Made by a program: the position numbers and the translations under genes. Shown one piece after another: positions 27,422 to 30,400 of a stretch of 64,000 bases of DNA. Below the pieces are notes generated by a model. The model had not been told where the DNA came from. It ran no database searches and saw nothing but the letters and a program-made list of their open reading frames with translations. The stretch's first letter is position 1, and the number at the start of each line of letters is the position of its first letter. Source of the DNA: the human T2T-CHM13v2.0 reference genome, Homo sapiens; the NCBI RefSeq assembly GCF_009914755.1, contig NC_060947.1; one strand, 5' to 3'.

Positions 27422-30400
27422 ATGACAGGATAAAATTCACATATAACAATATTAACCTTGAACGTAAATGGGCTACATGCTCAAATTAAAAGACAAGACT
27501 GGCAAATTGGATAAAGAGCCAAGACCCATCAGTGTACTGTATTCACGAGACCCATCTAATGTGCAAAGACACACATAGGCTCAAAATAAAGGGATGGAGG
27601 AAGATCTACCAAGCAAATGGAAAGCAAAAAAAAGCAGGGGTTGCAATCCTAGTCTCTGATAAAACAGATCTTAAGCAGTAGAGGTCCACTCCAGACCCGG
27701 TTTACCTGAGTTGGAAATGCAGAATCACTGGCCTTCTGCATCGATCTCGCTGGGAGCTGCAGACCAGAGCTGTTCCTATTCGGCCATCTTGCTGGAAATC
27801 AGAGTAACAAGATTTAATATTGTAGTTGCCTATGCTGACGAGCCTTTGGGGAAGTCTCACTAACTATTTTCAGCCAATTATCTTGAGTTGTTTATAAAAA
27901 GATCAAAAGAGACAAAGAAGGCCATTATATAATGGTAAAGGGATCAATGCAACAAGAAGAGCTAACTATCCTAAATATACATGCACCCAATACAGGAGCA
28001 CCTAGATTCATAAAGCAAGTTCTTAGAGACCTACAAAGAGATTTAGACTCTGACACAATAATAGTGGGAGACTTTAACACCCCCTGTCAATATTAGATCA
28101 ACGAGACAGAAAATTAACAAGGATATCCAGGACTTGAACTCAGCTCTGGACCAAGCAGGGCTAACAGACATCTACAGAACTCTCCACCCCAAATCAACAG
28201 AATATACATTCTTCTCAGCACTACATCACACATATTCTAAGATTGACCACATAGTTGGAAGTAAAACACTCCTCAGCAAATGTAAAAGAACAGAAATCAC
28301 AACAAACTGTCTCTCAGACTACAGTGCAATCAAATCATAAGTCAGAATTAAGAAACTCACTCAAAACCACACAAATACATGGAAACTAAACAACCTGCTC
28401 CTGAATGACTACCAGGTAAATAACAAAATGAAGGCAGAAATAAAGATGTTCTTTGAAACCAATGAGAACAAAGACACAACGTATCAGAATCTCTGGGACA
28501 CATTTAAAGCAGTGTGTAGAGGGAAATTTATAGCACTAAATGCCCACAAGAGAAAGCAGGAAGATTAAAATCAACACCCTAATATCACAATTAAAAGAAC
28601 TAGAGAAGCAAGAACAAACAAATTCAAAAGCTAGCAGAAGACAAGAAATAACTAAGATCAGAGCAGAACTGAAGGAGATAGAGACATGAAAACCCCTTCA
28701 AAAAAATCAATGAACCCAGGAGCTGGTTTTTTGAAAAGATCAACAGAATACATAGACCACTAGCCAGACTAATAAAGAAGAAAAGAGAAGAATCAAATAG
28801 ACGAAATAAAAAATGATAAAGGGGATATCACCACCGATCCCACAGAACTACAAACTACCATCAGAGAATACTATAAACACTTCTATGCAAATAAACTAGA
28901 AAATCTAGAAGAAATGGATGAATTCCTGCACACATACACCTTCCCAAGACCAAACCAGGAAGAAGTAGAATCTCTGAATAGACCAATAACAGGTTCTGAA
29001 ATTGAGGCAGTAATTAATAGCCTACCAACCAAAATAAGTTCAGGACCAGACGGATTCACAGCCAAATTCTACCAGAGGTACAAAGAGGACCGGGTACCAT
29101 TCCTTCTGAAACTATTCCAAACAACAGAAAAAGAGGGAATCCTGCCTAACTCATTTTATGAGGCCAGCATCATCCTGATACAAAAACCTGGCAGAGACAC
29201 AACAAAAAGAGAATTTCAGACCAATATCCCTGATGAACATCAATGTGAAAATCCTCAATAAAATGCTGGCATACCGAATCCAGCAGCACATCAAAAAGCT
29301 TGTCCACTACAATCAAGTCGGCTTCATCCCTGGGATGCAAGGCTGGTTCACCATATGCAAATCAATAAACATAACCCATCACATGAACAGAAAAAACGAC
29401 AAAAACCACGATTATCTCAATAGATGCAGAAAAGGCCTTTAACAAAATTCAACAGCCCTTCATGCTAAAACCTCTCAATAAACTAGGTATTGATGGAACA
29501 TATCTCAAAATAATAAGAGCTATTTATGACAAACCCACAGCCAATATCACACTGACTGGGCAAAAACTGGAAGCATTCCCTTTGAAAACCAGCACAAGAC
29601 AAGGATGCCCTCTCTCACCACTCCTATTCAACATAGTGTTGGAAGTTCTGGCCAGGGCAATTAGGCAGGAGAAGGAAATAAAGGGTATTCAGTTAGGAAA
29701 AGAGGAAGTCAAATTGTCCCTGTTTGCAGATGACATGATTGTATATCTAGAAAACCCCATCGTCTCAGCCCCAAATCTCCTTAAGCTGATAAGCAGCTTC
29801 AGCAAAGTCTCAGGATACAAAATCAATGTACAAAAATCACAAGCATTCTTATACACCAATAACAGACAGAGAGCCAAATCATGAGTGAACTCCCATTCAC
29901 AATTGCTTCAAAGAGAATAAAATACCTAGGAATCCAACTTACAAGGGACGTGAAGGACCTCTTCAAGGAGAACTACAAACCACTGCTCAAGGAAATAAAA
30001 GAGGATACAAACAAATGGAAGAACATTCCATGCTCATGGGTAGGAAGAATCAATATCGTGAAAATGGCCATACAGCCCAAGGTAATTTATAGATTCAATG
30101 CCATCCCCATCAAGCTACCAATGACTTTCTTCACAGAATTGGAAAAAACTACTTCAAAGTTCATATGGAACCAAAAAAGAGCCTGCATTGCCAAGTCAAT
30201 CCTAAGCCAAAAGAACAAAGCTGGAGGCATCACACTACCTCACTTCAAACTATACTACAAGGCTAAAGTAACCAAAACAGCATGGTACTGGTACCAAAAC
30301 AGAGATATAGATCAATGGAACAGAACAGAGCCCTCAGAAATAACGCCGCATATCTACAACTATCTGATCTCTGGCAAACCTGAGAAAAACAAGTAATGGG

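What the first reader, a model, noticed from the sequence alone, without database searches (positions are those of the whole stretch)
27661..27910. L1 carries an inverted snapshot of its own insertion junction inside ORF2
Seen: 27681-27900 is the reverse complement of ~100 bp of unique 5' flank (including the TSD, present a third time at 27802-27815) joined to the first ~120 nt of the L1, including the splice junction. It replaces about a dozen bases of ORF2 (consensus ...AAAACAGACTTTAAACCAACAAAGATC). There is no TSD, about 10 nt of unassigned filler on the left, and A-run microhomology on the right. It is not twin priming, because it contains genomic flank and ORF2 continues colinearly on both sides. 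Inference: a templated insertion from 1.5-2 kb away (Pol theta/MMBIR-type or RNA-templated repair) made after integration, disrupting the endonuclease domain.
Basis: partly seen in the sequence, partly recalled or inferred. Interest (0 to 1): 0.8.

Follow-up and report, generated by a model that had tools for sequence, protein, structure and literature searches.

The report
L1 holds inverted copy of own junction
An old, dead L1 retrotransposon in an intron of SLC25A53 carries inside its endonuclease gene a 220-base back-to-front copy of its own upstream insertion junction, a rare but recognisable kind of copying error made when the element was very young, perhaps while it was still being inserted.

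Summary
Window 27681-27900 is the reverse complement of 25716-25896 plus 26158-26197: 85 nt of flank that is otherwise unique in the genome, the 14-nt target-site duplication, and the first 121 nt of the L1 including its 5'UTR splice junction (200 of 220 aligned bases identical). The copy lacks the Alu that now splits the source, so it predates that Alu.

Dating puts the copy at about the L1's own age (ratio about 0.9, rough 95% range 0.5-1.6). No changes are shared by the two arms.

Best reading (0.7): a DNA-templated strand-switch (fold-back) copy made from a free 3' end in ORF2. Of that, about 0.4 is during or just after integration and about 0.3 is a later, unrelated break. RNA-templated copying (0.12) is not excluded.

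This is a new member of a known kind (local inverted templated insertion) with no likely function.

Side finding: the same L1 is a chimera whose 3' part (about 29.5-31.66 kb) comes from a much younger L1.

The parts
25716..25800 (+). Source, part 1: 85 nt of unique 5' flank of the L1 (begins in a T6 run)
   Evidence: 2 places in the whole genome; 80 of 85 identical to the inverted copy
25801..25814 (+). 5' target-site duplication AAATCTTGTTACTC of the old L1 (part of the source)
   Evidence: identical at 32049-32062 and, inverted, at 27802-27815
25815..25896 (+). Source, part 2: start of the L1 5'UTR up to the Alu insertion point
   Evidence: aligns to the 5' ends of 35 other L1s; 69 of 81 identical to the copy
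25897..26143 (+). 5'-truncated Alu with A tail, inserted into the source after the copy was made. Its TSD GGCGGGTGATTTCT is at 25883-25896 and 26144-26157
   Evidence: the copy has one TSD copy and no Alu; best genomic matches 88-92%; 8 of 26 CpG sites decayed
26158..26197 (+). Source, part 3: rest of 5'UTR exon 1 to the donor (CTGAG, ends 26172), spliced directly to the acceptor-side sequence GCAAACAGGG... (from 26173). The source ends at 26197
   Evidence: relatives have ...CTGAG|GTACC... and, roughly 750-1050 nt further on...CCCAG|GCAAACAGGG. The window joins the two
27499..27676 (+). ORF2 endonuclease-coding sequence left of the insert (ORF2p residues 27-85)
   Evidence: E about 8e-32 to L1 endonuclease and ORF2p structures such as 1vyb and 8uw3.
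27677..27680 (+). 4-nt filler AGTA. With C27676 it equals, in direct orientation, source 26198-26202
27681..27801 (-). Inverted copy of the first 121 nt of the spliced L1 5'UTR, in the pre-Alu state. Splice junction at 27705|27706
27802..27815 (-). Inverted third copy of the L1's TSD
27816..27900 (-). Inverted copy of 85 nt of unique flank. The last 3 nt (AAA, 27898-27900) could equally be ORF2 (microhomology)
27899..28084 (+). ORF2 endonuclease-coding sequence right of the insert (ORF2p residues 88-149)
   Evidence: same terminal-branch length as the left side
25815..32048 (+). The host element: a full-length, 5'UTR-spliced (SpIRE-like) old L1, antisense in SLC25A53 intron 1. Its 3' third is replaced by a younger L1 (see Noticed in passing)
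32049..32062 (+). 3' target-site duplication of the old L1

Best explanation
The insert is a DNA-templated strand-switch (fold-back) copy.

Proposed steps:
1. A free 3' end of the top strand inside ORF2 (after ...TTAAGC, 27676) left its proper template.
2. After 4 stray bases it copied the same chromosome's top strand backwards. It started 121 nt inside the L1 (26197), ran through the L1/flank junction and the TSD, and went 85 nt into the flank (25716). At that time the template lay 1.5-1.7 kb upstream.
3. The end then came back to ORF2 through an AAA match and synthesis went on. The cost was 4-7 ORF2 bases.

Shown: the inverted orientation, the cis source, the retained source, the junction anatomy, the order (L1 junction, then copy, then Alu) and the great age.

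Inferred: that the template was DNA, and the polymerase path.

Timing:
- The copy is about as old as the L1. I split the 0.7 into about 0.4 for 'while the L1 insertion was being completed or immediately after' and about 0.3 for 'an unrelated later break or stalled fork' (Pol theta-type snap-back or MMBIR).
- In the first case, either second-strand synthesis or a snapped-back cDNA 3' end had already filled in 99 nt of the resected upstream flank.

The insert has no likely function. It is a fossil that also preserves the pre-Alu, less decayed state of the junction.
For: Anatomy:
- Inverted cis copy with the source intact.
- Flank part unique in the genome.
- ORF2 is colinear on both sides, residues 27-85 and 88-149, with equal terminal-branch lengths left (0.039, 0.045) and right (0.043, 0.041). 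This means one element was interrupted, not two elements joined.
- 3-nt microhomology at the exit, a 4-nt filler at the entry, a small deletion and no TSD. This is the pattern of templated insertions at breaks.

Order of events: the copy has the empty Alu site.

Age:
- 14 non-CpG differences in about 208 sites between the arms give 3.4% per arm. The L1 body has 93 private non-CpG differences in 2570 sites, or 3.6%.
- Polarised against 35 relatives, the 121-nt L1 part has 9 source-derived, 6 (+1 indel) copy-derived and 0 shared-derived changes (my count on the alignments).
- Alu CpG decay of 8/26 is similar to the L1 body's 7/20.

Precedent (passages read):
- 22 'templated insertions' among about 3,600 somatic L1 insertions, with templates under 250 bp lying within 15 bp of the insertion site, made during integration (bioRxiv 10.1101/2024.08.27.596794).
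Against: - There is no microhomology at the entry junction. The primer end does not pair with 26198 onward; there are 4 unexplained bases instead.
- Documented snap-back copies are mostly 5-34 bp and taken from next to the break (PMC11724301, abstract start only). This copy is 220 nt, from 1.5 kb away.
- For the integration-coupled version, the template region would normally be double-stranded. The path I can draw needs several steps: failed ligation, snap-back, a nick, end-joining, and segregation of a heteroduplex.
- The dating rests on 20 differences and on equal-rate assumptions. The flank alone gives a ratio of about 0.56 (4 non-CpG differences).
- 0 of 37 other L1 loci looked at have such a structure, so nothing shows it recurs.
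- Sequence alone cannot exclude an RNA template.
Confidence: 0.7

Rival explanations
1. Timing variant of the best explanation, and the reader's view. The L1 was long finished. An unrelated double-strand break or stalled fork in ORF2 was repaired by resection, fold-back priming on the exposed upstream top strand (Pol theta snap-back or MMBIR), and re-annealing at AAA. Its 0.3 is counted inside the 0.7 above.
For: It is the simplest path (two switches) and every step is documented elsewhere. Junction anatomy fits. A 1.5-1.7 kb distance is within resection range.
Against: A later event has no reason to be as old as the L1. With a uniform prior on time, the arm divergence plus 0 shared-derived changes favour 'at integration' by a factor I estimate at roughly 5-9. 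This is my own arithmetic on the counts; no call ran it, and it depends on the rate model. This variant also gives no reason for the template to span the junction. The entry junction lacks microhomology.
Confidence: 0.3
2. RNA-templated copy. SLC25A53 is on the minus strand, so its pre-mRNA (or another antisense transcript) has the same sense as the insert. A bottom-strand 3' end ...GATCTTT at a nick or break in ORF2 annealed to the A6 run of that RNA. A reverse transcriptase (L1 ORF2p) copied 220 nt, and the end was joined with a 4-nt filler.
For: The copy ends exactly at the only A5-6 run of that stretch, next to a T-rich bottom-strand end. The sense matches the host gene given in the task's annotation. 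Small target deletions and 5' fillers occur at L1-mediated insertions (PMC11702581, passages).
Against: There is no untemplated poly(A) and no TSD. The bottom-strand site CTTT/GT is a poor match to the L1 endonuclease preference TTTT/AA (the preference is recalled, not tested). Priming inside an RNA at a short A run is unusual. Nothing marks the 5' end at 26197 as an RNA end. Like any later event, it does not predict the early date.
Confidence: 0.12
3. Capture of a free double-stranded fragment (flank + L1 start) by end-joining at a break in ORF2, the fragment being an over-replicated piece or a cleaved flap.
For: Filler at one junction, 3-nt overlap at the other, and a small deletion look like end-joining. 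Insertions derived from cleaved flaps during retrotransposition were inferred in PMC11702581 (passages).
Against: It needs a separate origin for the fragment while the source stays intact. Nothing in the sequence distinguishes it from templated synthesis.
Confidence: 0.06
4. Twin priming or another purely RNA-based TPRT variant.
For: Inverted L1 sequence inside an L1 is the hallmark of twin priming.
Against: The inverted piece contains 99 nt of non-L1 flank including the TSD. It is not at the 5' end. The L1 is full length and colinear on both sides.
Confidence: 0.01
5. Chance similarity, a dispersed repeat, or an assembly artefact.
For: None found.
Against: E 1.4e-62. The flank has only these two places in 3.1 Gb. 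The 9% divergence and the missing Alu rule out a recent mis-join.
Confidence: 0.01

Closest known systems
Templated insertions inside new L1 insertions, made during integration (Zumalave et al., bioRxiv 10.1101/2024.08.27.596794, passages read. They follow the SDSA-like model of Gilbert et al. 2005, which I know only through reference lists because the paper is not held)
   Same: Local genomic DNA under 250 bp, lying at the insertion site, is copied into the body of the L1. The source is kept.
   Different: Here the template also contains 121 nt of the element's own 5' end joined to the flank, so the junction already existed. The copy sits 1.5 kb inside a full-length element and is inverted. 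This is a germline fossil, not a somatic event. Their Supplementary Fig. 4d could not be seen, so I cannot say whether any of their 22 cases looks like this.
Fold-back / snap-back templated inverted insertions at double-strand breaks (yeast: PMC11724301, abstract start only. Pol theta-mediated end joining is recalled, not read)
   Same: Inverted copy of sequence on the same side of the break, exit by microhomology, small deletion.
   Different: Those are mostly 5-34 bp and come from right next to the break. This one is 220 nt, from 1.5-1.7 kb away, and has a filler instead of microhomology at the entry.
Short-range template-switch mutations in great-ape genomes (PMC7954356, abstract start only) and MMBIR
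   Same: A transient switch to a nearby alternate template and back, giving an inverted patch.
   Different: The scale is an order of magnitude larger than the short-range class. This is a single insertion rather than a complex rearrangement.
Twin priming 5' inversion of L1
   Same: Inverted L1 sequence within an L1.
   Different: Twin priming inverts only L1 RNA-derived sequence at the 5' end of a truncated element. See Membership tests.
SpIRE, spliced integrated retrotransposed element (Larson et al. 2018, PMC5860796, passages read)
   Same: The host L1 uses the 5'UTR donor after ...CTGAG (their G98U99) joined to a downstream 5'UTR acceptor AG. It is otherwise full length, with a TSD.
   Different: The acceptor (...CCCAG|GCAAACAGGG) is not obviously one of their 97/622, 97/790, 97/853 or 97/976 classes. 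I could not map it to their coordinates. 'SLC25A53' does not occur in the 8 supplementary files held.

Membership tests
Local inverted templated insertion (template switch / fold-back) | The insert is the reverse complement of nearby sequence on the same chromosome | tested here: met
   200 of 220 identical; source 1.5-2.0 kb upstream
Local inverted templated insertion (template switch / fold-back) | The source is retained (copy, not cut-and-paste) and is the best match genome-wide | tested here: met
   only two places for the flank part in 3.1 Gb
Local inverted templated insertion (template switch / fold-back) | Microhomology at the switch points | tested here: inconclusive
   Exit: AAA shared (27898-27900). 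Entry: none, with a 4-nt filler AGTA. 9% later divergence blurs short matches
Local inverted templated insertion (template switch / fold-back) | DNA rather than RNA template | not testable with these tools
   No sequence feature separates the two here
Integration-coupled templated insertion in L1 | The template lies at the insertion site and is under 250 bp | tested here: met
   The template spans the 5' junction (-99 to +121) and is 220 nt. Criterion taken
Integration-coupled templated insertion in L1 | Made during the integration event | tested here: inconclusive
   Age ratio copy/L1 about 0.9 (rough range 0.5-1.6) and 0 shared-derived changes. Compatible but not proof
Twin priming | The inverted segment derives only from the L1 RNA and forms the 5' end of a truncated insertion | tested here: not met
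   99 nt of unique flank + TSD lie inside the inverted piece. The L1 is full length and colinear around it
Endonuclease-dependent TPRT insertion of a cellular RNA | Untemplated poly(A) tail, flanking TSD, TTTT/AA-like nick site | tested here: not met
   The A run is templated (source T6). There is a 4-7 nt deletion instead of a TSD. The site is CTTT/GT. The consensus site itself is recalled
SpIRE (host element) | 5'UTR donor joined to a downstream acceptor AG exactly as in spliced L1 RNA, in an element with TSD and A tail | tested here: met
   35 relatives carry GT after CTGAG and AG before GCAAACAGGG. The window joins them at 26172|26173. TSDs:

The most novel reading that the evidence does not exclude
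The inverted junction copy was written during the L1's own integration. The cDNA (or the second strand primed from the upstream flank) had already crossed the new 5' junction and filled in about 100 nt of resected flank. It then let go, snapped back and primed on the still single-stranded ORF2 region. If so, the insert is a germline fossil of the least understood step of L1 retrotransposition: 5' junction formation and second-strand synthesis. It would record the extent of flank resection (85 nt beyond the TSD) and the order of events.
Probability: 0.4. Interest if true: 0.6.

Novelty: new member of a known kind. Interest (0 to 1): 0.38.

Why it matters
On its own this is one neutral, ancient mutation in a dead intronic L1, with no likely effect on SLC25A53.

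Its value is as a natural record:
- It shows that inverted templated insertions can reach 220 nt and draw on a template 1.5 kb away in the primate germline.
- The copy froze the junction before an Alu landed in the source and before 9 further substitutions, so it gives an internal clock.
- That clock says the copy is about as old as the element. This raises the testable idea that L1 integration itself can write a copy of the new 5' junction into the element.

If a genome-wide scan found more such cases, enriched for 5' junctions, they would give direct sequence evidence on flank resection and strand switching during second-strand synthesis.

Tried and rejected
- Dispersed repeat or other locus as the source: rejected.
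- The right-hand ORF2 as a separate, later L1 joined at the insert. I raised this when the 3' end turned out to be young. Rejected: 27901-29100 has the same terminal-branch length as the left side and best genomic matches of 91-93%. The young part starts only at about 29.4-29.6 kb.
- Inverted-orientation homology of the filler to the source beyond 26197: none.
- Pfam on the two 60-aa ORF2 pieces gave 0 families (the pieces are too short). The PDB sequence search did place them.
- Search for the same architecture in 37 other L1 loci already fetched: 0 of 37. The own locus was recovered as a positive control. This sample is far too small to set a rate.
- Alu dating from 32 mixed Alu copies is crude. 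The non-CpG value of 8.6-9.6% is inflated by subfamily differences, so only the CpG fraction was used.
- Two young relatives fetched to map the chimera breakpoint were 5'-truncated, and a third fetched stretch also gave no hit (L073 and L074; L075).
- Earlier findings of this scan were not open.
- Gilbert et al. 2005 is not held.
- Literature searches (listings plus the passages cited) showed no description of an L1 with an internal inverted copy of its own 5' junction. This is a limited search. The supplementary figures of the two preprints could not be seen.
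Full report
**What is there**

The window is chrX:102548001-102612000 of T2T-CHM13, as given in the task. A full-length L1 lies at 25815-32048 on the + strand. It is antisense in intron 1 of SLC25A53. It is flanked by the 14-nt target-site duplication AAATCTTGTTACTC at 25801-25814 and 32049-32062.

Inside its ORF2, 27681-27900 is the reverse complement of 25716-25896 joined to 26158-26197.
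- The repeat finder reports the two arms as 178 nt at 90% and 44 nt at 93%.
- Segment by segment there are 20 mismatches in 220 aligned bases: flank 5 of 85, TSD 0 of 14, L1 part 15 of 121, plus a 1-nt deletion in the copy.

**The source is local**

A 116-nt query of the flank has two places in the 3.1-Gb genome, itself and the inverted copy. With the insert as query, 40 of 1945 candidates were scored. Only the local source covers the flank part (E 1.4e-62). The other 38 hits are L1 5' ends covering query 40-143 only.

**The host element is spliced**

35 other L1s read ...AACTGAG|GTACC... about 97 nt from their start. Roughly 750-1050 nt further on (locus positions) they read ...CCCAG|GCAAACAGGGTCTGG.... 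The window joins CTGAG directly to GCAAACAGGG at 26172|26173.

This is the donor described for SpIREs (Larson et al. 2018, PMC5860796, passages). I could not assign the acceptor to one of their classes.

**An Alu dates the copy relative to the source**

A 5'-truncated Alu (25897-26143, TSD GGCGGGTGATTTCT) now splits the source. The copy has the empty site. The order is therefore L1 junction, then copy, then Alu.

**Junction anatomy, corrected**

In 28 relatives the two ORF2 flanks are contiguous or nearly so. The offset is 4 (the value expected from my coordinates) in 25, and 0, 2 and 23 in one each. None has a large insert. 11 of the 28 read exactly GACTTTAAACCAACAAAGATC at the site, and the others differ from it at a few positions.

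The window reads GATCTTAAGC | AGTA | inverted copy | (AAA)GATC.
- The left flank translates to ORF2p residues 27-85.
- The right flank translates to residues 88-149 of solved L1 endonuclease and ORF2p structures.
- So 4-7 nt are lost, the filler is 4 nt, and AAA is shared at the right.
- A stop (TAG, 27679-27681) and a frameshift result.

**Both sides of the insert are one element**

Least-squares star-tree terminal branches against the same 25-29 relatives are 0.039 and 0.045 on the left and 0.043 and 0.041 on the right. L018 was dropped as a duplicate of L017.

**Dating**

- Against the majority state of the relatives, the L1 body has 93 private differences in 2570 non-CpG sites (3.6%) and 7 in 20 CpG sites.
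- The arms differ at 14 non-CpG positions in about 208 sites, or 3.4% per arm. This gives an age ratio copy/L1 of about 0.9. By my own Poisson arithmetic the 95% range is roughly 0.5-1.6. The flank alone gives about 0.56 from 4 differences.
- I polarised the 15 substitutions of the L1 part on the alignments. The source lineage has 9 and the copy lineage has 6 plus the indel. None is shared, apart from one ambiguous position in the hypervariable first bases.
- The Alu's CpG decay (8 of 26) is close to the L1's (7 of 20), with wide error. Its best genomic matches are only 88-92%.

L1 insertion, copying and Alu insertion therefore appear crowded together early in the locus's history. If later events are spread uniformly over time, my own arithmetic on these counts (run in no call) favours 'at integration' by roughly 5-9 fold. 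This depends on equal rates and on small numbers.

**Mechanism**

Any model must make B'A' (antisense L1 start followed by antisense flank) on the top strand between two colinear ORF2 halves. RNA-only TPRT schemes fail, because the flank, TSD and L1 start are contiguous in the copy. First-strand schemes fail on causality, because the junction does not yet exist. What remains:

- (a) A top-strand 3' end in ORF2 folds back onto the upstream top strand. This could happen at a resected break or stalled fork long after integration, or during second-strand synthesis.
- (b) At integration, the cDNA 3' end crosses the RNA 5' end and fills in the resected flank for 99 nt. It fails to be ligated, snaps back by AAA/TTT onto its own single-stranded ORF2 region and primes the rest of the second strand. 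A nick and an end-joining step (the 4-nt filler) then follow.
- (c) An antisense RNA (the host pre-mRNA has the right sense) is reverse-transcribed from a T-rich bottom-strand end at its A6 run.
- (d) A free fragment is captured.

I give DNA-templated strand switching 0.7 (0.4 integration-associated, 0.3 later), RNA templating 0.12, capture 0.06, and other readings a few percent.

Precedents, from passages read:
- 22 templated insertions among about 3,600 somatic L1 insertions, with templates under 250 bp within 15 bp of the site.
- 3 + 3 cases of templated or inverted flank at L1 insertions in a cell model, and hairpin/foldback formation by cDNA self-annealing.

**Unexplained details**

- With C27676, the filler reads CAGTA. 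This equals, in direct orientation, the 5 nt that follow the source segment (26198-26202). 28 of 35 relatives read CAGCA there and none reads CAGTA. If this is not chance (about 1e-3 for that register, judged post hoc), the copying strand ran forward through these bases and then made a U-turn onto the complementary strand.
- Six changes cluster within about 45 nt around the left junction: 3 in the last 10 ORF2 bases and 3 in the first 30 of the copy. About 1.8 would be expected. This could be error-prone synthesis or chance.

**Comparison and novelty**

This is a member of the known class of local inverted templated insertions. It is unusual in three ways: its length and reach, the fact that the template is the element's own fresh 5' junction, and its age matching the element's.

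I found no description of this architecture in four literature searches. The search was limited and the supplementary figures of the two most relevant preprints were not visible. No function is expected.

**Side finding**

The L1 is a chimera.
- 31279-31664 matches 40 genomic L1 3' ends at 97-98%.
- 29800-31599 is 95-99% identical to 6-24 young relatives per 100-nt window.
- By contrast, 27901-28900, 28901-29900 and the terminal 31665-32048 reach only 91-94%.
- Against two young relatives, mismatch density falls between about 29400 and 29610.

The 382-nt 'tandem duplication' is thus a young L1 3' end followed by the old L1's own 3' end. I read it as a young L1 that primed inside the old one at ...TTAAG|AAAATGTGG and was resolved upstream by homology. 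This would be a 'chimeric L1' in the sense of Gilbert et al. 2005, as cited in PMC8087252 (passages). It lies 1.5-1.7 kb from the inverted insert and is much younger, so it is unrelated to it.

Noticed in passing
window 29400-32048: The host L1 is a chimera. From about 29.4-29.6 kb to 31664 it is a much younger L1 (97-98% to 40 genomic copies) ending in a short A tail. It is followed by the old L1's own last 384 nt (92-94% to its best relatives) and the old TSD. It looks like TPRT of a young L1 inside the old one, resolved by homology. This explains the 382-nt 'tandem duplication' D1/D2.
   Followed up: partly
window 26172-26173 (and 27705-27706 in the copy): The L1 is a spliced (SpIRE-like) element. 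The 5'UTR donor CTGAG| is joined to the acceptor-side sequence GCAAACAGGG. 35 relatives keep the roughly 750-1050-nt intron. The acceptor was not matched to the published SpIRE classes.
   Followed up: partly
window 26216: The source L1 lacks about 23 nt (CTGCAGCTGAGGGGCCTGA-like) that nearly all 35 relatives have just upstream of TGTTAGAAGG. The copy ends before this point, so the deletion cannot be timed.
   Followed up: no
window 27676-27680 versus 26198-26202: CAGTA at the left junction equals, in direct orientation, the bases that follow the source segment. Possible trace of a U-turn of the copying strand, or chance.
   Followed up: partly
window 27668-27712: Cluster of 6 substitutions around the left junction: 3 in the last 10 ORF2 bases and 3 in the first 30 bases of the copy.
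   Followed up: no
window 25716-25896 with 27721-27900: The two arms make a roughly 180-220-nt, 91% inverted repeat with a 1.8-kb spacer inside SLC25A53 intron 1. In the pre-mRNA this could fold into a long imperfect hairpin. Not examined.
   Followed up: no
loci L017 and L018 (G000 C23:71.26 and 71.32 Mb): Two full-length L1 relatives on the X, 60 kb apart and in opposite orientation, are identical in every aligned stretch printed. Presumably they lie in a large inverted segmental duplication.
   Followed up: no
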